From Candidatus Karelsulcia muelleri PSPU (GTDB lineage Bacteria; Bacteroidota; Bacteroidia; Flavobacteriales; Blattabacteriaceae), in contig NZ_AP013293.1 in the NCBI RefSeq assembly GCF_000829155.1, forward strand, positions 253,353 through 285,352: a stretch of DNA of 32,000 bases. Reading direction: 5' to 3'. Below are positions 8,600 through 22,352 of the stretch, piece by piece (position 1 is the stretch's first letter; every line of letters begins with the position of its first letter). The notes under the pieces were generated by a model that did no database searches, had not been told where the DNA came from, and was given only the letters and a program-made list of their open reading frames with translations. Position numbers and translations under genes: made by a program.

Positions 8600-8725
8600 T
8601 AATATGTTGTAAAAGTTTATTCTTTATTTGTGACTAATGTTGATATTATCCAAAAATAAATAAATTTCTAATTATATTCTTTTATATCGTATTTAATAAT
8701 CTTTAGGTAAGAAAAAAAAATAGTA

Positions 8726-9532: not shown

Positions 9533-10453
9533 ATGTATAAAAAAATGTATGAATATCATAATCCTGTTTTATTGGATGAGACCTTGACTCTCTTAGTTAA
9601 AGAAATTGATGGAATTTATATAGATACAACTTTTGGTGGGGGGGGACATTCTTTTTCATTATTAAAAAAATTAAATAATAAAGGGAGGCTAATTGCTTTT
9701 GATCAAGATATATATTCTATAAAAAAAAATAATATAATTGATACAAGATTTAATCTTGTGAAAACCAATTATATATTTATAAAAAAAATATTAAAAATAT
9801 ATAATCTTAATAAAGTCTCTGGTATATTAGCTGATTTAGGAATTTCTTCTCATCAAATAAATACTCCAAAAAGAGGATTTTCAATTAGATCTAATAGTAT
9901 TTTAGATATGAGGATGGATACTTTTAATAAAATTAATGCAAAATATATAATAAATAATTATTCATATAATGAATTATATAATATATTTAAAATATATGGA
10001 GATATAAAAAATTATAAATTTTTAGCAAAATTAATTCTAAAACAAAGAAAAAAAAAATATATAAAATATACATTTGATTTAATTAATATATTAAAAGTTT
10101 TTTTTAAAAAAAAACTAGAAAATAAATTTTTATCAAAGATCTTTCAATCTTTACGAATAGAAGTAAATAATGAAATCAATGCATTAAAATATTTATTAAA
10201 TAATTCTTTATCTATATTAAAACCTGGAGGTAGAATTGCTGTTATATCTTATAATTCTATAGAAGATAGAATTGTTAAAAAATTTTTAAAAACTGGAAAT
10301 TTTAATGGAGTTGTTTCATATGATGGATATGGTAATAATATATCACCTTTAATTCTTTTAAAACCTAAAATAATTTTTTCTTCTAAAGAAGAAATTAAAA
10401 AAAATAATAGATCAAGAAGTGCTATATTAAGAATAGCAGAAAAAAAACTATAA
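9533..10453 (+). CDS. rsmH: 16S rRNA (cytosine1402-N4)-methyltransferase RsmH/MraW
   Basis: 306 aa. ..YHNPVLLDE.. and the SAM-binding motif ..DTTFGGGGHS.. are present, as is ..SYNSIEDRIVK... The start could be ATG 9533 or 9545. Confidence 0.9.
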   Translation: MYKKMYEYHNPVLLDETLTLLVKEIDGIYIDTTFGGGGHSFSLLKKLNNKGRLIAFDQDIYSIKKNNIIDTRFNLVKTNYIFIKKILKIYNLNKVSGILADLGISSHQINTPKRGFSIRSNSILDMRMDTFNKINAKYIINNYSYNELYNIFKIYGDIKNYKFLAKLILKQRKKKYIKYTFDLINILKVFFKKKLENKFLSKIFQSLRIEVNNEINALKYLLNNSLSILKPGGRIAVISYNSIEDRIVKKFLKTGNFNGVVSYDGYGNNISPLILLKPKIIFSSKEEIKKNNRSRSAILRIAEKKL

Positions 10454-10455
10454 TA

Positions 10456-10760
10456 AAGTAAACTTATAAGCCGGATTCTGTATTTATCATTTATCTGGGA
10501 AAAAAGTTACCTTTTTACTCTATCTGCCCACCCCCCGAATTAATAGTTAAAGGGAATACTACACTTTTTTTAAAAAGTATCCGGTATACATTGCATTTCA
10601 CAACACAGAGTTTACAATATTTCACTACAGCCTAACTGTACTTTATTTCTGTTGCACTATTCCTAATCTCACGATGGCCGGGAATTACCCGATGTGTTCC
10701 CCTAATGTGTCCGGACTTTCCTCATTATTTAATAATAAACGCGATAAAAAAGTCTACTTC
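10456..10760 (-). ncRNA. rnpB: RNase P RNA (bacterial type A, size-reduced, ~305 nt)
   Basis: A relatively GC-rich island with no ORF. The minus strand contains the universal P4/CR-I box GAGGAAAGUCCGGACAC (revcomp of 10707-10723). It also has GUGCAACAGAAA, and CCCAGAUAAAUGAUAAAUACAGAAUCCGGCUUAUAAG (CR-V; core is revcomp of 10463-10481). A P1 helix pairs AAGUAGAC (10759-10752) with GUUUACUU (10463-10456). Ends are approximate to a few nt. Confidence 0.9.
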
Positions 10761-10761
10761 T

Positions 10762-12300
10762 TTATAAAAAATTTTCTTTTATTATTCTTGGATAAACCCA
10801 TTTAAGTAAATTCATATAAGAATATAAACCTCCCTCAAAATGTTGGGGGATAGTAGGTTTATAATTTATATAAATATTTTCAGCATTAAATTTATTAGTA
10901 ATAGAAGATATTATGTATCTATCATTACAAAATATATATCCTGTAAAAAAAAAATTTGTTTTATTCACTAAATAAATAGTTTTTTCCCAATTAGAATCTT
11001 CATATATATAAACTGTTAAGACTGGGCCAAATATTTCATCTATCATACTTTCATAATATGGATTATTAGTTTCTATTACTGTTGGAGTAATAAAATAACC
11101 TTTTGAACTATCACATTTTCCACCAATAATAATATTACAATTATTATCATTCTTAGCTCTATATATATATCCTTTAATTTTATTAAAACTAATTTCATCA
11201 ATTACAGATGTAATAAAATTTGAAAAATTCCTAGGACTTCCTAGTTTCATAGAATGAATATTATTTATTAATAATTTTTTTATATTTTCTTTCCATAAAG
11301 ATTTTGGTATATAAGCTCTAGACACAGCAGACAATTTTTGTCCTTGATATTCAAAAGCTCCATATGAAAGTGCTATAGATACTTCTTTTGAATTAGAATT
11401 AGGATGTACCCATATAAAATTTTTTCCTCCTGTTTCTCCTACAATACGTGGAGAATATCTATATAAATCTATTTTTTTACTTATATTTTTAAATATTTTT
11501 TTAAAGACTTCTGTAGAGCCTGTAAAATTTATTCCTGCAAAATTTTTATGTTTTAATATAACATTTGATGTAGTTTTTACATTTGTTAATAACATATTAA
11601 TTACACCATCAGGCAATCCAGATTTTTTAAATATTTCCATTAAAACATTTGCAGAATATAATTGTTTATTAGATGGTTTCCATAATACAACATTTCCCAT
11701 AAGGGCCATACAAGCTGGTAAATATCCAGATATAGAAGTAAAATTAAATGGTGTTATTGCAACTACAAATCCTTTTAAAGGACGATAATATAAACTATTA
11801 AAAACTCCTCTACTATATAAATATTTCTTATTATATATTATATATGCATATTCTATATGAAATTTTAAAAGATCTATTAATTCACAAGCGGCATCTATTT
11901 CAGATTGAAAAATATTTTTCGATTGACCAATCATTGTAGCTGCATTAATTTTCATTCTATATGGACCAGAAATTAAATCAGCAGCTTTTAAAAATATAGA
12001 AGCTCTATCTGCCCAAGATAAATTTGACCAATTTTTATGGACTGATAAAGATGAATTAATTGCATTATTAATATCTTTTTCTGATCCTTCATGCCAATAT
12101 CCTATAATTTTTTTATTATCATGTGGAGGAGAAATAGGATGTTTTATTCCACTAAAAATTTTTTCATTTCCAATATATTGAGGAATATCTATTTTAGAAT
12201 TAAACATTTCATCATAAAGTCTTTTTAATTTTAAACGAGAAATAATATCATTATTATAATCATGTATTGGTTCATTAATAAAAAATTTTTTTTTATACAT
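10762..12300 (-). CDS. pruA: 1-pyrroline-5-carboxylate (L-glutamate gamma-semialdehyde) dehydrogenase homolog, catalytic Cys replaced by Leu
   Basis: 512 aa, collinear with the Bacteroidota-type P5CDH/ALDH family (..WADRASIFLKAADLISGPYR.KINAATM.GQSKN..Q.EIDAACELID.., ..AITPFNFT.., ..VGETGGKNF..). The nucleophile motif reads FEYQGQKLSAVSRAYIP instead of ..QGQKCSA... About 11 residues are missing from the C-terminal KPTGAVVG..PFGGAR.SGTNDKAGS segment. Confidence 0.85.
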   Translation of the reverse strand: MYKKKFFINEPIHDYNNDIISRLKLKRLYDEMFNSKIDIPQYIGNEKIFSGIKHPISPPHDNKKIIGYWHEGSEKDINNAINSSLSVHKNWSNLSWADRASIFLKAADLISGPYRMKINAATMIGQSKNIFQSEIDAACELIDLLKFHIEYAYIIYNKKYLYSRGVFNSLYYRPLKGFVVAITPFNFTSISGYLPACMALMGNVVLWKPSNKQLYSANVLMEIFKKSGLPDGVINMLLTNVKTTSNVILKHKNFAGINFTGSTEVFKKIFKNISKKIDLYRYSPRIVGETGGKNFIWVHPNSNSKEVSIALSYGAFEYQGQKLSAVSRAYIPKSLWKENIKKLLINNIHSMKLGSPRNFSNFITSVIDEISFNKIKGYIYRAKNDNNCNIIIGGKCDSSKGYFITPTVIETNNPYYESMIDEIFGPVLTVYIYEDSNWEKTIYLVNKTNFFFTGYIFCNDRYIISSITNKFNAENIYINYKPTIPQHFEGGLYSYMNLLKWVYPRIIKENFL

Positions 12301-12315
12301 AAAATTATTTTAAAT

Positions 12316-13950
12316 TTAATTTTTAGTAAAATTAAATATAATTTTTTTTCCAAAAGGTGTATAATATGGATTGTTAGAATTAAATAAATTTTTAATTAAA
12401 TATTTAATTTTTAAATTATTAATTTTTACTCCATTTTTAATAGAAAAATATTTACATATTTTTTTATAAAAAATCTCAAGATTTAAATCAAAATTTGATA
12501 TAATACTTTTTATAAAATTAGATATATTATATGACTCTAACATTAGAGGTATATATTTAACTAAAATAATATCTTTAATAAGATTAATTTCAAATCCTAA
12601 ATAATTTAATTTATTTATTATTTCTTTTATAGAAGAATAATTTTTATTAATAATTTTTATTTCGATTGGAAATCGAATTTTTTTTTTTTTTTTATATTTT
12701 TTATAATAAAAAAAATCATATAAAATTCTTTGATGAGCACGATTTTGATTGACTAATATGAGTTCAAATTTAATAAAGCCTAATAGATATTTATTATAAA
12801 TTTGAATCCATTTATATAAATAATATTTATTTACGTTTTCTAAAAAAAAATTAGAATTAAATTTTTTTTCTTTTAAAGATTCTTTTATATTTTTATATTT
12901 TTTATTAAAAAAAAAGATATAATTTTTATCAGTATCTTTTTTTTTTAAAAAAAATTTTTTAATATTATTAATTCCTAAATATTCTTTAATAAGAGTACTA
13001 ATTTTATTACATAAATATATTTCATCATAAAATTTTACTTTTGTTTTGTATGGACTAATATTAATATTAAATTTACTAGGATCCATCGTTAAAAAAATAA
13101 AATAAGAAGGATTATATTTTTTTTTTGTAAGACCTTCATAAGAATTTATAATAGCATTATGTAAATTTTTATTTTTTATAAATCGTTTATTTAAAAAAAT
13201 ATATTGTTTTTTTAAATTAAAATATTTAGTATTTGTTATGTAACCTTGTATTTTAACTAAGTTAGTCGTTTTTTTTATTTTAATTAAATATTTTTTTATT
13301 TTTTTACCAAAAATTTTTATTATACGTTTTTTATGTGAAGATTTTTTTAAAAAAAAAACAATTTTTTTATTATTTTTTAAAATAAAATTTATATCATTAT
13401 GACTTAATACAATTTTATAAAATTCATTAATAATATTTTTTAATTCTAAATTAGAAGATTTTAAAAATTTCCTTTTAACAGGAATATTATAAAATATATT
13501 CTTTATACATATGCTACACCCTTTATCCATGGAAATTGGTAATGGTTTATATTTTAATTTTCCATTTTCTATAATAAGCCTTATTCCTATATCTGATTCT
13601 ATATATCTTGTATCAATTTCTATCTGGGTAACAGAAGTAATATAAGATAAAGCTTCACCTCTAAATCCTTTAGTTGAAAGATTTAAAAGATCTTCTACTT
13701 TATTTATTTTTGACGTAGAATATCTCTCAAAACTTTTTATAGCATCATTTTTACTCATTCCTATACCATCATCTATAATATGTATTCTATCTTTACCTCC
13801 ATTTAATAATATTATTTTTATATTTTTTGCATAAGCATCTATAGAATTTTCTAAAATTTCTTTTAATATTGATGATGGGTTATGTATTACATCTCCAGAT
13901 GCTATTTTATTTGATACATTTTTTGATAATAATTTTATTACATCAGTCAT
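12316..13950 (-). CDS. mutL: DNA mismatch repair protein MutL (endonuclease motifs degenerate)
   Basis: ORF-track entry trimmed to ATG 13950 (MTDVIKLLSKNVSNKIASGDVI..). GHKL ATPase motifs are intact (EILENSIDA, DDGIGM, GFRGEAL). The C-terminal domain is recognisable, but DQHA..E....E reads NQNRAHQRILYD and CPHGRP reads TPFGKK. Confidence 0.88.
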   Translation of the reverse strand: MTDVIKLLSKNVSNKIASGDVIHNPSSILKEILENSIDAYAKNIKIILLNGGKDRIHIIDDGIGMSKNDAIKSFERYSTSKINKVEDLLNLSTKGFRGEALSYITSVTQIEIDTRYIESDIGIRLIIENGKLKYKPLPISMDKGCSICIKNIFYNIPVKRKFLKSSNLELKNIINEFYKIVLSHNDINFILKNNKKIVFFLKKSSHKKRIIKIFGKKIKKYLIKIKKTTNLVKIQGYITNTKYFNLKKQYIFLNKRFIKNKNLHNAIINSYEGLTKKKYNPSYFIFLTMDPSKFNINISPYKTKVKFYDEIYLCNKISTLIKEYLGINNIKKFFLKKKDTDKNYIFFFNKKYKNIKESLKEKKFNSNFFLENVNKYYLYKWIQIYNKYLLGFIKFELILVNQNRAHQRILYDFFYYKKYKKKKKIRFPIEIKIINKNYSSIKEIINKLNYLGFEINLIKDIILVKYIPLMLESYNISNFIKSIISNFDLNLEIFYKKICKYFSIKNGVKINNLKIKYLIKNLFNSNNPYYTPFGKKIIFNFTKN

Positions 13951-14028
13951 TTTATTATAGATTATAATTTTTAATATTGTTAGTAATTTATTTTTAAATA
14001 AATTATTTTTTATTATAATATATATATT

Positions 14029-15366
14029 GTGAAACTCTGGCAAAAAAATTTTGAAATTAATAAAAAAATAGAAATATTTACAGTAGGAAAAGATAGAAAT
14101 TTAGATTTATTTTTAGCACCTCATGATGTTATAGGGACATTAGCACATATAATAATGTTAGAAACAATAGGTCTATTAAACATTAACGAATTAAATTCTT
14201 TAATTAAAGAATTACATATTATTTATGATACAATTATATCTGGAAAATTTAAAATAGAGGATAATGTCGAAGATATACATTCTCAAATAGAATTAATATT
14301 AACTCAACGTTTAGGAGAAATCGGTAAAAAAATCCATAGTGGAAGATCTAGAAATGATCAAATTTTATTAGATATAAAATTATTTATTCGTAAAGAAATA
14401 CAAGAATTAGTTTTTTTAATTAAAAAATTATTTAATGTCTTAATATATTTAAGTAATCGTTATAAAAAAATATTAATTCCTGGTTATACACATTATCAAA
14501 TAGCTATGCCTTCTTCATTTGGTTTATGGTTCGCCTCTTATGCAGAAAGTCTTATAGACGATATATGTTTTTTAAAAAACGCTTATAATATTTCTAATAA
14601 AAATCCTTTAGGTTCAGCAGCTGGATTTGGATCATCTTTTTCATTAAATAGAAAACTTACAACAGATCTTTTAGGTTTTGAAGATTTAAATTATAATGTA
14701 GTATATGCACAAATGTGTAGAGGTAAAACAGAACGTATAGTTTCACAAGCTATTTCATCATTAGCTAGTACTATGAGTAAAATATCTCAAGATATATGTT
14801 TATATATGAGTCAGAATTTTAATTTTTTTTCATTACCTGATAATTTAACTACAGGATCTAGCATAATGCCACACAAAAAAAATCCAGATGTATTTGAATT
14901 AATAAGATCTAGATGTAATAAAATTATTTCTTTACCTAATCAAATATCAATTATAATAACTAATTTATCTTCAGGATATCATAGAGATTTACAAACTATT
15001 AAAGAAATTTTTTTACCAATATTTGATGAAATTAAAACAATAATATTAATATCTACATTTATGTTTAAAAAACTAATTATAAATAAAGAAATATTAAATG
15101 ATAAAAAATATAAATATTTGTTTAGTGTAGAAGTTGTTAATTCTTTAGTTAAAAAAGGTGTCTCATTTAGAGAAGCATATAAAAAAATTGGATTAGATAT
15201 CCAAAAAGGATGTTTTTATCCAATTACTGAGATAAAACATTCTCATGAAGGAAGTATAAGCAATTTATGTAATAAAAAACTTTCATATATAATGAAAAAT
15301 TCAATAAAACAATTTAAATTTGAAATTGTTAATAAAGCCATTAATAAATTATTAATTAATATATAA
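14029..15366 (+). CDS. argH: argininosuccinate lyase
   Basis: 445 aa with a GTG start (GTG AAA CTC TGG = MKLW, the usual ArgH N-terminus). The fumarate-lyase signature TGSSIMPHKKNPD and ..HSGRSRNDQ.. are present. Confidence 0.93.
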   Translation: MKLWQKNFEINKKIEIFTVGKDRNLDLFLAPHDVIGTLAHIIMLETIGLLNINELNSLIKELHIIYDTIISGKFKIEDNVEDIHSQIELILTQRLGEIGKKIHSGRSRNDQILLDIKLFIRKEIQELVFLIKKLFNVLIYLSNRYKKILIPGYTHYQIAMPSSFGLWFASYAESLIDDICFLKNAYNISNKNPLGSAAGFGSSFSLNRKLTTDLLGFEDLNYNVVYAQMCRGKTERIVSQAISSLASTMSKISQDICLYMSQNFNFFSLPDNLTTGSSIMPHKKNPDVFELIRSRCNKIISLPNQISIIITNLSSGYHRDLQTIKEIFLPIFDEIKTIILISTFMFKKLIINKEILNDKKYKYLFSVEVVNSLVKKGVSFREAYKKIGLDIQKGCFYPITEIKHSHEGSISNLCNKKLSYIMKNSIKQFKFEIVNKAINKLLINI

Positions 15367-15368
15367 TT

Positions 15369-16850
15369 TTATTTCATTTGAGGAAAAAATAAAACATCTT
15401 GTATACATTTGTTATTTGTTAATAACATTATTAACCTATCTATTCCAATTCCTATTCCTGCACATGGGGGCATTCCAAATTCTAAAGAACGTATAAAATT
15501 ACAATCTATTAACATAGCTTCATTATCTCCTTTATTATAGAGTTTAATTTGTTCTCTAAATCTTTTTAATTGATCAATAGGATTATTTAATTCAGAATAT
15601 GAATTTGCTATTTCATTTCCATTAATTATCAATTCAAACCTTTCAGTTAATCCTTTTTTACTTCTATGTATTTGAGTTAAAGGACTCATTTCTATTGGAT
15701 GATCCATAATAAATGTAGGATTAATATATTTTTTTTCACATTTTTCACTAAAAATTAGATCAATAATTTTACCTTTTCCCATACTATTATCTATTTTTAC
15801 ATTTATTTTTTTACATATTTTAATTATATTTTTTTCATCCATTCCATATAAATCATAGCCAGTATTTTCTTTAATTGAATCTAATATTGTTATTTTTTTA
15901 AATGGAATATTAAAATTTATAATATTATATCCAATTTTTATAAATTTTTTATCATGTATTTTTACACATAAAAATTCTAGCATTTTTTCTATAAAAATCA
16001 TCATCCAAAAATAATCTTTATAAGATACATATAATTCTAAAATAGTAAATTCTGTATTATGTATTTTATCTATACCTTCATTTCTAAAATTTCTAGAAAA
16101 TTCATAAACGGATTCTAATCCTCCTACAATTAATTTTTTTAAAAATAATTCATTTGAAATACGTAAATATAATGGTATATTTAGTGCATTATGATGAGTC
16201 ATAAATGGACGAGCGATAGCCCCTCCAGGGATTGATTGAAGTATAGGAGTTTCTACTTCTAAATATCCTTTTTTATTTAAAAAATTACGAATATATTGTA
16301 TTATTTTAGTTCGCTTTCTAAATATAGATTTTGTTTTATCATTAACTATTAAATCTAAATATCTCATACGATAACGTTGTTCAGACTCATAAAAAGAGTC
16401 ATGAACTTTTCCAGTTTCATCTTGTTTAACATGGGGTAAAACACGTAAACATTTAGATAATAATTTTATTTTTTTAGCATGTACAGTAGTCTTATTACTT
16501 TTAGTTTTAAATAAAAAACCTTTTATTCCTATAATATCTCCAATATCTAAAAGTTTTTTAAAAAAAAAATCATAATTTTTTATACTATCTCTTTTAAGAT
16601 AAATCTGTATTATTCCATGTTTATCTTTCATTTCTATAAATGAGGCTTTTCCCATTATTCTCATTCTAATAATACGTCCAGAAATAATTACATTTTTTCC
16701 ATATTCATAAAATTTAATCAAATATATTGATGTTGCATTTACATAATATTCTTCAGACGGATAAGGATTTATACCCAATTTTATAATTTCATAAAGTTTT
16801 TTTCTACGTATTATTTCTTGATCTGATAATTTTATAAAATTTTTATTCAT
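15369..16850 (-). CDS. lysS: lysine--tRNA ligase (class II)
   Basis: ORF-track entry trimmed to ATG 16850 (MNKNFIKLSDQEIIRRKK..). The 30 upstream codons read through the tRNA gene and are an artefact. OB-fold N-domain plus class II core (..FRNEGID..H..EFT..E.Y.., ..GMPPCAGIGIGIDRL.M). Confidence 0.93.
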   Translation of the reverse strand: MNKNFIKLSDQEIIRRKKLYEIIKLGINPYPSEEYYVNATSIYLIKFYEYGKNVIISGRIIRMRIMGKASFIEMKDKHGIIQIYLKRDSIKNYDFFFKKLLDIGDIIGIKGFLFKTKSNKTTVHAKKIKLLSKCLRVLPHVKQDETGKVHDSFYESEQRYRMRYLDLIVNDKTKSIFRKRTKIIQYIRNFLNKKGYLEVETPILQSIPGGAIARPFMTHHNALNIPLYLRISNELFLKKLIVGGLESVYEFSRNFRNEGIDKIHNTEFTILELYVSYKDYFWMMIFIEKMLEFLCVKIHDKKFIKIGYNIINFNIPFKKITILDSIKENTGYDLYGMDEKNIIKICKKINVKIDNSMGKGKIIDLIFSEKCEKKYINPTFIMDHPIEMSPLTQIHRSKKGLTERFELIINGNEIANSYSELNNPIDQLKRFREQIKLYNKGDNEAMLIDCNFIRSLEFGMPPCAGIGIGIDRLIMLLTNNKCIQDVLFFPQMK

Positions 16851-16881
16851 AAAATAATTTGAATGATAATATAAACAAAAG

Positions 16882-16955
16882 TGACCTCGAAGGGAGTTGA
16901 ACCCCCAACCTTCTGATCCGTAGTCAGATGCTCTATCCAATTAAGCTACGAGGCC
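16882..16955 (-). tRNA. tRNA-Arg (anticodon ACG)
   Basis: The minus strand reads GGCCTCGTAGCTTAATTGGATAGAGCATCTGACTACGGATCAGAAGGTTGGGGGTTCAACTCCCTTCGAGGTCA. It folds by hand into a cloverleaf: 7-bp acceptor, D stem GCTT/GAGC, anticodon stem TCTGA/TCAGA with loop CTACGGA, T stem GGGGG/CCCTT with loop TTCAACT. No encoded CCA. Confidence 0.93.
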
Positions 16956-21932: not shown

Positions 21933-22352
21933 TTAATTAAAATTTGGAATTTTATTAAAAAATAAAATTCTATTATTTTTTTTATCTATTTTAAATATTA
22001 AATAATTTATATAATTAGTAATTATTAAATAATTACTTTTAAGAAAAAAAAAATATTTAATGATTTGATCAAATACTTTTTGTGAAAAAATACATGAAGA
22101 TTTACATTCAATAAGAATATAAGGTTTTTTTTTATTATAAACTATAATATCTATACGTTTTTTTACCTTATTAAATATAAAATATTTCTCTACAAAAATA
22201 GAAGAGATATCATATCCTTTATTTATAATTAAATGATATAATATATTTTGTCTAATAAATTCTTCTTTAGTAAAAATATAATATTTATTTCTAATAATAC
22301 AATAAATATATGTATTATTATTATAATATTTATAATAAAAATTATATTTCAT
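21933..22352 (-). CDS. small HsdR_N-like / PD-(D/E)xK-fold protein of unknown function
   Basis: 139 aa. The pattern ..TKEEFIRQN.LYHLI..KGY....I.VEK......KKRIDIIVYNKKKPYILIECKSS.......FDQI.KY...L...YLIITN.. matches my memory of the 'type I restriction enzyme R protein N-terminal domain' family, widespread as a stand-alone protein in Bacteroidota. The D..ExK triad appears intact (D68, E82, K84). Confidence 0.7.
   Translation of the reverse strand: MKYNFYYKYYNNNTYIYCIIRNKYYIFTKEEFIRQNILYHLIINKGYDISSIFVEKYFIFNKVKKRIDIIVYNKKKPYILIECKSSCIFSQKVFDQIIKYFFFLKSNYLIITNYINYLIFKIDKKNNRILFFNKIPNFN

What the first reader, a model, noticed from the sequence alone, without database searches (positions are those of the whole stretch)
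11326..11343. Full-length P5C dehydrogenase homolog with Leu in place of the catalytic cysteine
The 512-aa ALDH-superfamily protein (10762..12300, minus strand) is collinear with Bacteroidota-type 1-pyrroline-5-carboxylate dehydrogenase. It keeps the general-base box VGETGGKNF. The nucleophile motif F-E-[FY]-Q-G-Q-K-C-S-A, however, reads FEYQGQKLSA. Codon 323 is TTG (revcomp of 11332-11334 'caa'), flanked by AAA (Lys) and TCT GCT (Ser-Ala), so this is a substitution and not a frameshift.

The C-terminal segment is also shortened by roughly 11 residues: KPTIPQHFEGGLYSYMNLLKW against the usual KPTGAVVG.QPFGGAR.SGTNDKAGS..NLLRW. No ALDH is known to turn over substrate without this thiol.

An intact 1.5-kb frame in this stop-codon-rich sequence context argues for one of two things. 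Either inactivation was very recent, or the protein is retained as a pseudo-enzyme (a binding or structural role), or the locus is retained for another reason (see the rnpB finding).
Basis: partly seen in the sequence, partly recalled or inferred. Interest (0 to 1): 0.65.

Follow-up and report, generated by a model that had tools for sequence, protein, structure and literature searches.

The report
Dead P5C dehydrogenase kept by Sulcia
The insect symbiont Sulcia, which has a tiny genome, keeps a full-length glutamate-semialdehyde (P5C) dehydrogenase gene that lacks its essential catalytic cysteine; related strains show the loss is old, yet selection still protects the crippled protein, so it is a retained pseudo-enzyme and not a fresh or neutral pseudogene.

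Summary
ORF 10762..12300 (-) is a 512-aa ALDH4A1-type P5C/glutamate-semialdehyde dehydrogenase homolog. Its nucleophile codon reads TTG (Leu, 11332-11334). Twelve residues are deleted from the substrate 'anchor loop' region.

The window is Candidatus (Karel)sulcia muelleri of the spittlebug clade. No Sulcia examined keeps the cysteine:
- Five other spittlebug strains, including CARI, have Phe (TTT in the two whose DNA was read).
- Cicada strains have Ser (AGT in the two read) and have also lost the Glu base.
- Sharpshooter and leafhopper strains, including GWSS and DMIN, have in-frame deletions of both boxes.
- The 190-kb ALF type keeps only 196 residues.
- One MAG has a relic with stop codons.

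So inactivation is old, and probably happened in parallel from TGT.

The ORF is nevertheless under purifying selection:
- Omega is 0.17-0.28 within three clades, and omega=1 is rejected in each.
- Changes at codon positions 1+2 are 0.12 of the neutral expectation, against 1.09 for intergenic DNA.
- About 22 nonsense hits are expected under neutrality and none is seen.
- All 13 within-clade indels are in frame.

The family-specific conservation profile is flattened. Best reading: a catalytically dead protein that is still translated, with an unknown non-catalytic role, and that erodes in smaller Sulcia genomes. rnpB abuts its stop codon, but this cannot explain the amino-acid constraint.

The parts
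10762..12300 (-). 512-aa ALDH4A1/P5CDH-type ORF lacking the catalytic cysteine. It is identical to collection protein P0269, whose longest contig is 285,352 bp.
   Evidence: The AlphaFold model has TM 0.84-0.87 to P5CDH/ALDH4A1 structures.
11332..11334 (-). Leu323 codon TTG at the nucleophile position (Cys in the family).
   Evidence: Relatives read TTT (Phe), AGT (Ser) or have the codon deleted.
11326..11355 (-). Nucleophile loop FEYQGQKLSA (family consensus FEYQGQKCSA).
   Evidence: pLDDT is below 50 for residues 319-324 in the model.
11419..11442 (-). General-base box VGETGGKN, with Glu289 intact in the window.
   Evidence: Close relatives already carry G->V hits here (GGETGVK, GGETVGK). 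Cicada strains have E->K and leafhopper strains have it deleted.
11737..11754 (-). TPFNFT: the oxyanion-hole Asn186 and the aromatic-box Phe187. Both are retained.
   Evidence: Roles are taken from PMC12398946.
10813..10860 (-). KPTIPQHFEGGLYSYM: the shortened anchor-loop / C-terminal segment, with 4 + 8 residues deleted.
   Evidence: pLDDT is below 50 for residues 482-512.
10451..10760 (-). rnpB (RNase P RNA, class A). It starts 1 nt after the ALDH stop codon, on the same strand.
   Evidence: 154.7 bits, E = 3e-48. The same abutment is seen in L089, L002 and L092.
12316..14043 (-). mutL, directly upstream on the same strand (15-nt spacer). It erodes in parallel with the ALDH across Sulcia lineages.
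   Evidence: PMC3787670.
9533..10453 (+). rsmH, convergent with rnpB. The synteny argH/mutL/ALDH/rnpB/rsmH/dapF was used to recover orthologous loci.

Best explanation
The gene is the Sulcia ortholog of the Bacteroidota L-glutamate-gamma-semialdehyde (P5C) dehydrogenase. It has lost catalysis but not expression.

Shown:
- The thiol nucleophile is absent from every Sulcia lineage I could examine.
- The substrate anchor loop is deleted.
- The family-wide conservation profile has been partly erased.
- The reading frame and the amino-acid sequence are nevertheless held by purifying selection about as strong as on neighbouring housekeeping genes.

Inferred:
- The protein is still translated and folds as an ALDH.
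- In the spittlebug clade it probably still binds NAD(H), because all cofactor-contact motifs are intact.
- It cannot form the thiohemiacetal, so it does not oxidise glutamate semialdehyde.
- It is kept for a non-catalytic role of the folded protein (binding or structural).
- That role is progressively dispensable. In smaller Sulcia genomes the protein is whittled down by in-frame deletions, reduced to a 196-aa stub in the 190-kb genomes, and decayed to a relic with stop codons in one lineage.
- Loss of the Cys most likely happened in parallel, TGT->TTT in spittlebug Sulcia and TGT->AGT in cicada Sulcia, after the oxidation step had become useless to the symbiont.
For: Cys status across Sulcia:
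- Window: TTG (Leu).
- Five other spittlebug strains, including CARI: Phe (TTT in L001 and L095, the two whose DNA I read).
- All 15 listed members of the 80-member cicada cluster, including SMDSEM: Ser, and Glu->Lys in the base box. The Ser codon is AGT in L089 and L091, the two whose DNA I read.
- 7 sharpshooter/leafhopper strains, including GWSS and DMIN: in-frame deletions of both boxes.

Selection after the loss, within clades:
- GY94-F3x4 omega is 0.167 (LRT 21.5), 0.221 (15.6), 0.267 (8.6) and 0.283 (8.3). Neighbouring genes give 0.03-0.65.
- A neutral expectation built from 4-fold sites gives observed/expected changes at codon positions 1+2 of 0.12, 0.32 and 0.23 for the ALDH. The same model gives 1.09 for intergenic DNA and 0.10 for RNA genes.
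- Expected nonsense substitutions on the window-L001 path are 21.6, so P(no stop) = 4e-10.
- 13 of 13 within-clade indels are multiples of 3, against 3 of 13 in intergenic DNA. Fisher p = 1e-4.
- GC1/GC2/GC3 are 0.31/0.31/0.07, as in functional neighbours.

Loss of the ancestral regime:
- The window keeps 149 of 200 near-invariant family columns. Other Sulcia keep 104-113. Equally AT-rich symbiont homologs that still have Cys keep 193-194.
- The constraint gradient across conserved, middle and variable columns is 0.17 / 0.22 / 0.30 for the ALDH. For the DapF control it is 0.05 / 0.28 / 0.49.

Fold and chemistry:
- The fold is kept: pTM 0.79 and TM 0.84-0.87 to P5CDH structures. The low-confidence segments are exactly the catalytic loops, the oligomerisation hairpin and the C-terminus.
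- Cys->Ser disables the GSALDH activity of PutA (PMC12398946).
Against: - No non-catalytic function is identified. No expression or proteomic evidence was found.
- The protein can be lost. It is reduced to 196 aa in ALF-type Sulcia and is a relic with stop codons in L096.
- NAD-contact motifs are not conserved across clades: WKPS->WIPS in leafhopper strains and FTGST->FKGPI in cicada strains. A common NAD(H)-binding role is therefore doubtful.
- The truncated neighbour mutL also shows omega below 1 (0.24). Persistent constraint on eroding ORFs may be a general Sulcia property, for example the cost of misfolded or truncated products, rather than proof of a specific function.
- It is the most diverged protein of the locus between clades, at 60% identity to the cicada Sulcia ortholog.
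Confidence: 0.6

Rival explanations
1. Operon or leader constraint without a protein function. The ORF sits between mutL and the essential rnpB on one strand. It is transcribed and translated only because it is part of that transcript. Selection removes stops, frameshifts and destabilising replacements because these would cause polarity, transcript loss or toxic misfolded product. In-frame shrinkage is tolerated or favoured.
For: - rnpB starts 0-17 nt after the ORF stop in all four lineages checked, however much of the C-terminus is gone.
- No conserved promoter block lies upstream of rnpB.
- All indels are in frame, and the protein shrinks stepwise: 512 -> 455 -> 425 -> 403 -> 196 aa.
- The truncated mutL upstream behaves similarly.
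- Conservation is flattened relative to the family profile.
Against: - Polarity or cost arguments predict removal of nonsense and frameshift changes, but only weak selection on missense changes. Observed missense constraint (0.12 of neutral) equals that of rsmH, dapF and secY.
- Such weak effects are unlikely to be maintained under the strong drift of an endosymbiont (inference).
- A weak promoter-like match exists 20 nt upstream of rnpB, but such matches are no more frequent than in shuffles.
- Whether Sulcia has Rho was not testable here.
Confidence: 0.25
2. Neutral pseudogene or very recent inactivation. The ORF is intact only because too little time has passed.
For: - The catalytic Cys is absent, the anchor loop is deleted, and the score is below the NCBIfam cut-off.
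- The gene is fully degraded in some Sulcia lineages.
- NG86 dN/dS looked unremarkable, at 0.41-0.63.
Against: - The loss is shared by spittlebug strains that differ at the very codon, and by CARI.
- Omega = 1 is rejected in three clades.
- About 22 nonsense hits are expected and none is seen.
- Indels are 13 of 13 in frame.
- GC at codon positions 1 and 2 is 0.31, against 0.08 in intergenic DNA.
Confidence: 0.03
3. Still an enzyme with altered chemistry. For example, it might oxidise an aldehyde hydrate by direct hydride transfer, or run another NAD-dependent reaction that does not need the thiol.
For: In the window, Glu289, Asn186 and the WKPS, FTGST and EIFGP motifs are all intact. Purifying selection is strong in the spittlebug clade.
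Against: - The residue at the site drifts between Phe and Leu, and the GETGGK glycines are hit in sister strains.
- No candidate catalytic residue is common to the three clades.
- The substrate anchor loop is deleted.
- Cys->Ser abolishes GSALDH activity in PutA.
Confidence: 0.05
4. Sequencing or assembly error at the codon.
For: None beyond prior possibility.
Against: Six spittlebug-clade sequences all lack Cys, including two independent assemblies whose DNA was read. The flanking codons are identical.
Confidence: 0.01

Closest known systems
L-glutamate gamma-semialdehyde (P5C) dehydrogenase, ALDH4A1 type (TIGR01236; PDB 4IDM from M. tuberculosis, 3V9K mouse, 3V9G human)
   Same: The fold and collinear sequence match: 37-38% identity, TM 0.84-0.87, and E = 2e-112 by sequence. 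The oxyanion Asn, aromatic-box Phe, Glu base and NAD-contact motifs are present in the window.
   Different: There is no nucleophilic Cys. The anchor loop is shortened by 4 + 8 residues and the C-terminal tail is missing. The score is below the curated family cut-off. A quarter of the near-invariant family columns are changed.
[quoted passage not shown]
   Same: They are the same syntenic gene between mutL and rnpB. Woyke et al. 2010 list it among the most diverged GWSS/DMIN protein pairs (PMC2859065). The cluster look-up links them to the window protein's clades.
   Different: They are annotated as a (putative) enzyme or as 'aldehyde dehydrogenase family protein'. I found no paper that notes that every one of them lacks the catalytic Cys. 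The GWSS and DMIN versions have deleted both catalytic boxes, whereas the window version is nearly full-length.
Catalytically inactive ALDH-superfamily proteins (mammalian ALDH16A1, mollusc omega-crystallins, the C-terminal ALDH-like domain of long PutAs). Recalled from my own knowledge, not tested here.
   Same: An ALDH fold is retained without a working nucleophile and is kept for a non-catalytic role.
   Different: Those belong to other ALDH families and have known or proposed roles. Here the parent family is ALDH4/P5CDH, the host is a 0.19-0.29 Mb endosymbiont, no role is known, and the protein is visibly eroding in some lineages.
Gene erosion in reduced endosymbiont genomes (for example mutL in Sulcia-ALF, PMC3787670)
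   Same: Both show a lineage-specific gradient from full-length ORF to stub to relic. The erosion runs parallel to that of the adjacent mutL.
   Different: Ordinary erosion proceeds through stops and frameshifts at neutral rates. Here the frame and the sequence remain under selection long after catalytic death.

Membership tests
L-glutamate gamma-semialdehyde dehydrogenase (P5CDH, ALDH4A1 type, TIGR01236) | Sequence and fold homology over the full length | tested here: met
   TIGR01236 E = 2e-166 over residues 9-511. 4IDM E = 2e-112. Model TM 0.84-0.87.
L-glutamate gamma-semialdehyde dehydrogenase (P5CDH, ALDH4A1 type, TIGR01236) | Score at or above the curated equivalog cut-off | tested here: not met
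   554.6 bits against a cut-off of 613.6.
L-glutamate gamma-semialdehyde dehydrogenase (P5CDH, ALDH4A1 type, TIGR01236) | Catalytic cysteine nucleophile in F-E-Y-Q-G-Q-K-C-S-A | tested here: not met
   Leu323 (TTG). Cys is present in all 145 non-Sulcia homologs aligned.
L-glutamate gamma-semialdehyde dehydrogenase (P5CDH, ALDH4A1 type, TIGR01236) | General-base Glu (GETGGK) and oxyanion-hole Asn (PFNFT) | tested here: met
   VGETGGKN and TPFNFT are intact in the window. They are not intact in cicada or leafhopper Sulcia.
L-glutamate gamma-semialdehyde dehydrogenase (P5CDH, ALDH4A1 type, TIGR01236) | Anchor loop that binds the substrate alpha-carboxylate (KPTGAVVGQQPFGG...) | tested here: not met
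   The window reads KPT--I--PQHFEGGLY--------SY, with 4 + 8 residues deleted. The loop's role is taken from PMC12398946.
L-glutamate gamma-semialdehyde dehydrogenase (P5CDH, ALDH4A1 type, TIGR01236) | NAD+-dependent oxidation of GSA/P5C to glutamate | not testable with these tools
   This needs an assay of the recombinant protein.
L-glutamate gamma-semialdehyde dehydrogenase (P5CDH, ALDH4A1 type, TIGR01236) | Pathway context: a proline dehydrogenase or another P5C source in the genome | not tested
   No Pro_dh-type gene occurs among the genes of the 32-kb window or the fetched loci. The whole genome could not be searched.
ALDH-superfamily pseudoenzyme (inactive homolog retained by selection) | ALDH fold with the nucleophile missing | tested here: met
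ALDH-superfamily pseudoenzyme (inactive homolog retained by selection) | Purifying selection that persists after loss of the catalytic residue | tested here: met
   Omega is 0.17-0.28 with LRT 8.3-21.5 within three Cys-less clades. Observed/expected changes are 0.12-0.32. Indels are all in frame.
ALDH-superfamily pseudoenzyme (inactive homolog retained by selection) | A demonstrated non-catalytic function, or at least expression as protein | not testable with these tools
   No proteomic or transcript evidence was found in the papers searched.
Neutral pseudogene | Stops or frameshifts, omega near 1, and composition relaxed toward intergenic values | tested here: not met
   The ORF is intact. 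P(no stop | neutral) = 4e-10. Omega = 1 is rejected. GC1/GC2 are 0.31 against 0.08 for intergenic DNA. By contrast the relic in L096 does carry stops.

The most novel reading that the evidence does not exclude
The P5CDH homolog had a second, non-catalytic function already in the ancestor of Cicadomorpha-associated Sulcia. When oxidation of glutamate semialdehyde became useless, spittlebug, cicada and leafhopper Sulcia each lost the catalytic machinery in a different way: Cys->Phe/Leu, Cys->Ser plus Glu->Lys, and in-frame deletions. All three kept the protein under selection over long evolutionary time. If so, one of the smallest bacterial genomes carries a bona fide essential pseudo-enzyme derived from ALDH4. 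Its role might be linked to the co-oriented mutL-ALDH-rnpB unit or to NAD(H) or partner binding.
Probability: 0.3. Interest if true: 0.7.

Novelty: new member of a known kind. Interest (0 to 1): 0.5.

Why it matters
Genomes of 0.19-0.29 Mb are thought to keep only what the symbiosis needs. A 1.5-kb gene for a dead enzyme that is still protected by selection is therefore unexpected. It implies one of two things. Either Sulcia has an unrecognised non-catalytic function that metabolic reconstructions miss, since they count this gene as 'P5C dehydrogenase'. Or gene death in these genomes is a long, selected, in-frame shrinking process rather than a quick collapse.

The case also gives a practical warning. 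[quoted passage not shown]

Finally, the series spittlebug -> cicada -> sharpshooter -> Deltocephalinae -> relic is a natural time course of enzyme decay that can be studied experimentally.

Tried and rejected
- The genome-contig scan with the window protein returned only free-living Bacteroidota (80 loci at 48-52% identity).
- Two homolog searches with the ALDH found only three Sulcia clusters, because eroded orthologs score below the thousands of intact P5CDHs. I recovered the orthologous loci through the neighbour DapF and synteny instead.
- Nei-Gojobori dN/dS (0.41-0.63) made the gene look only weakly constrained. It is unreliable here, because the substitution spectrum is about 85% A<->C / G<->T and GC3 is 7%. 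I replaced it with ML codon models and a 4-fold-site neutral model, which I validated on intergenic DNA.
- The raw count of variable sites against family conservation looked flat, as for a pseudogene. After correcting for mutational opportunity a weak gradient remains.
- Literature searches for Sulcia plus P5CDH, aldehyde dehydrogenase, pseudoenzyme or proteomics found only the gene's name in a table.
- The promoter scan was uninformative: 34 sites against 43 expected in shuffles.
- Alignment of the sequence upstream of rnpB across lineages showed no shared promoter block.
- Host and strain identity could not be verified.
Full report
**1. Observation**

ORF 10762..12300 (-) encodes 512 aa. The minus-strand sequence at 11355..11326 reads FEYQGQK-L-SA, with TTG at 11334..11332.

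- The protein matches TIGR01236 (L-glutamate gamma-semialdehyde dehydrogenase) over its whole length: E = 2e-166 and 554.6 bits, below the curated cut-off of 613.6.
- It matches Pfam Aldedh.
- Its best solved relatives are M. tuberculosis P5CDH and mammalian ALDH4A1.
- An AlphaFold model (pTM 0.79) superposes on those structures with TM 0.84-0.87.
- The Glu box VGETGGKN, the oxyanion/aromatic-box motif TPFNFT, and the WKPS, FTGST and EIFGP motifs are intact.
- Relative to 145 Cys-bearing homologs, the C-terminal KPTGAVVGQQPFGG.R.SGTNDKAGS segment has lost 4 + 8 residues, and the last ~10 residues are missing.
- That segment contains the anchor loop that holds the substrate carboxylate. Cys->Ser alone disables the homologous GSALDH site of PutA (PMC12398946).

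**2. Organism and orthologs**

The window is ~21% GC. Its proteins are those of Candidatus (Karel)sulcia muelleri.

- The window protein is identical to collection entry P0269, whose longest contig is 285,352 bp.
- Direct homolog searches found few Sulcia orthologs, and a genome scan found none.
- I therefore used the conserved order argH / mutL / ALDH / rnpB / rsmH / dapF to fetch the locus from other lineages.
- I then read the 90% clusters of the orthologs.

The survey gave the following.

| Lineage | ORF length | State at the Cys site | Other changes |
|---|---|---|---|
| Spittlebug clade: window plus five others, including strain CARI | 512-523 aa | Phe in all five others (TTT in the two with DNA); window TTG (Leu) | All share the C-terminal deletions. 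Two strains carry different Gly->Val hits inside GETGGK. |
| Cicada clade: an 80-member cluster including SMDSEM | 446-459 aa | Ser in all 15 listed (AGT in the two with DNA) | GETGGK -> GKTIGK, FTGST -> FKGPI, C-terminus truncated |
| Sharpshooter/leafhopper clade: GWSS, DMIN and others | 403-426 aa | KCSA removed by in-frame deletion | In-frame deletions also remove the Glu box (22 aa) and a 14-aa hairpin; C-terminus truncated |
| 190-kb ALF-type genomes | 196-aa ORF (residues 19-237 only) | Region absent | See |
| One MAG (L096) | None | Relic only | Recognisable 3' relic with stop codons in front of rnpB |

No Sulcia has the cysteine. TGT->TTT and TGT->AGT are single steps, whereas TTT<->AGT needs two. 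Parallel loss from an ancestral Cys is therefore the most parsimonious history, by one step. The different fates of the Glu box and the different truncation points in each clade agree with this.

**3. Is the dead gene drifting?**

No. Within each clade every member already lacks the Cys, so within-clade comparisons measure selection after catalytic death.

- Pairwise ML codon models (GY94, F3x4) give omega = 0.167 (window-L001, LRT against omega=1 of 21.5), 0.221 (window-L095, 15.6), 0.267 (two cicada strains, 8.6) and 0.283 (two leafhopper strains, 8.3). These lie inside the range of neighbouring genes, 0.03-0.65.
- The substitution spectrum is unusual. About 85% of changes are A<->C / G<->T, and roughly a third of G/C 4-fold sites differ at 97% overall identity.
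- Because of this I built a neutral expectation from the 4-fold sites of neighbouring genes.
- That model predicts intergenic divergence correctly (69 observed, 63.5 expected, ratio 1.09). It gives 0.10 for RNA genes and 0.21 for all CDS.
- For the ALDH, codon positions 1+2 show 16 changes against 131 expected (0.12). The other two clades give 0.32 and 0.23. These values are comparable to rsmH, dapF and secY.
- Under neutrality the path between the window and its 97%-identical relative should have produced ~22 nonsense substitutions, so P(none) = 4e-10.
- All 13 indels that separate close relatives inside the ORF are multiples of three, against 3 of 13 in intergenic DNA.
- GC1/GC2/GC3 are 0.31/0.31/0.07, against 0.08 for intergenic DNA.

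'Very recent inactivation' and 'neutral pseudogene' are rejected.

**4. What kind of constraint remains?**

- The window keeps only 149 of the 200 family columns that are at least 97% conserved. Other Sulcia keep 104-113.
- Equally AT-rich symbiont homologs that still have Cys keep 193-194.
- Recent replacements hit formerly invariant positions, many of them in the Glu loop, the Cys loop and the anchor region.
- After correcting for mutational opportunity, the ALDH constraint runs 0.17 / 0.22 / 0.30 across conserved, middle and variable family columns. The DapF control in the same genomes runs 0.05 / 0.28 / 0.49.

The enzyme-specific profile is thus largely flattened, but every class of site is still protected. 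This is what is expected of a folded protein whose active site no longer matters.

The AlphaFold low-confidence segments are residues 158-171, 280-292, 319-324 and 482-512. These are the pieces deleted in the more reduced lineages. The alignment behind the model was shallow (18 sequences), so this agreement is only suggestive.

**5. Context**

- rnpB (RF00010, 154.7 bits) lies at 10451..10760 (-), 1 nt after the ALDH stop codon.
- mutL ends 15 nt upstream of the ALDH start, on the same strand.
- In cicada, leafhopper and ALF-type Sulcia, rnpB likewise begins 0-17 nt after whatever is left of the ORF.
- I found no conserved promoter block upstream of rnpB. The consensus promoter scan is uninformative in this AT-rich DNA.
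- mutL erodes in step with the ALDH: 575 -> 542 -> 365 aa, and then a 135-bp relic in ALF (PMC3787670).

A rival reading follows from this. The ORF may be kept open only because it is part of a mutL-ALDH-rnpB transcript, with stops, frameshifts or misfolding products being costly. That reading explains the in-frame shrinkage and the abutment. It does not explain missense constraint as strong as on essential genes. I give it 0.25.

**6. Mechanism, with shown and inferred steps marked**

Shown:
- The gene has no nucleophile and a shortened anchor loop.
- The loss is old and widespread.
- Purifying selection and frame maintenance persist after the loss.
- The family-specific constraint profile is flattened.
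- The gene is lost in a lineage-specific way in the smallest genomes.

Inferred:
- The product is translated, folds as an ALDH and cannot oxidise glutamate semialdehyde.
- In the spittlebug clade it may still bind NAD(H).
- It serves a non-catalytic role that becomes dispensable as genomes shrink further.

Not known: what that role is, and whether the protein is actually made.

**7. Comparison and novelty**

- By descent the gene is a member of the ALDH4/P5CDH family. As an enzyme it fails three defining features: the Cys, the anchor loop and the curated score.
- It works like, and is best filed with, the inactive ALDH-superfamily homologs. I recall ALDH16A1, omega-crystallins and the PutA C-terminal domain from my own knowledge.
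- The only paper hit lists the gene among the most diverged GWSS/DMIN pairs, without comment (PMC2859065).
- I found no report that all of them lack the catalytic Cys or that they remain under selection.

I rate it a new member of a known kind. It is of moderate interest to specialists in symbiont genome evolution and pseudoenzymes, and of practical relevance for metabolic reconstructions of Sulcia.

Noticed in passing
window 10451-10760 (-): rnpB (RNase P RNA class A, 154.7 bits) is wedged between the ALDH stop codon (1-nt spacer) and the convergent rsmH, whose stop it overlaps by 3 nt. The same tight ALDH-rnpB abutment holds in cicada, leafhopper and ALF-type Sulcia.
   Followed up: partly
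window 1100-22292 compared with L001: The substitution spectrum between 97%-identical spittlebug Sulcia strains is ~85% A<->C / G<->T transversions (4-fold sites: AC 47, GT 39, AT 11, CT 3, AG 2). About one third of G/C 4-fold sites differ, and kappa is far below 1. This is the signature expected of 8-oxoG-type damage. The leafhopper pair L002/L088 has a more even spectrum.
   Followed up: partly
window 12316-14043 (-): Only the N-terminal ~335 residues of mutL match the MutL model well, and its GC1/GC2 are ~0.20. It is truncated to 365 aa in sharpshooter/leafhopper Sulcia and is a 135-bp relic in Sulcia-ALF. Even the truncated form still shows omega of 0.24.
   Followed up: partly
window 21933-22352 (-): This 139-aa ORF has an HSDR_N_2 domain in relatives and no NCBIfam hit. 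Its GC1/GC2 are 0.16/0.14. Its ortholog pair L002/L088 evolves at the neutral expectation (obs/exp 0.95). It looks like a truly decaying ORF and is a useful contrast to the ALDH.
   Followed up: partly
window 15369-16940 (-) and 16881-16955 (-): The mechanical lysS ORF (523 aa, TTG start) overlaps tRNA-Arg(ACG). The real start must lie downstream, since relatives are 493-499 aa. The pairwise omega for this gene was the highest of the locus (0.65, not significantly below 1).
   Followed up: no
window 8600-8725 vs L001 13594-13971: The rplQ-dapF spacer differs by ~250 nt between two 97%-identical strains. This is the largest indel in the 21 kb compared.
   Followed up: no
L084 / L085 (Logan SRR21069255, SRR21069266): An unidentified, very AT-rich Bacteroidota symbiont encodes an intact, Cys-bearing P5CDH (P0003, 61% identical to the window protein) in a non-Sulcia gene context. 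The run accessions are numerically close to that of the Sulcia-bearing run SRR21069227.
   Followed up: no
L088 10001-11212 vs L002 10001-11278: Nine separate deletions, all of 6 or 12 nt, distinguish two 97%-identical leafhopper-clade ALDH ORFs. This is an unusually regular deletion size. The cicada pair shows three 6-nt indels and the spittlebug strains one.
   Followed up: no
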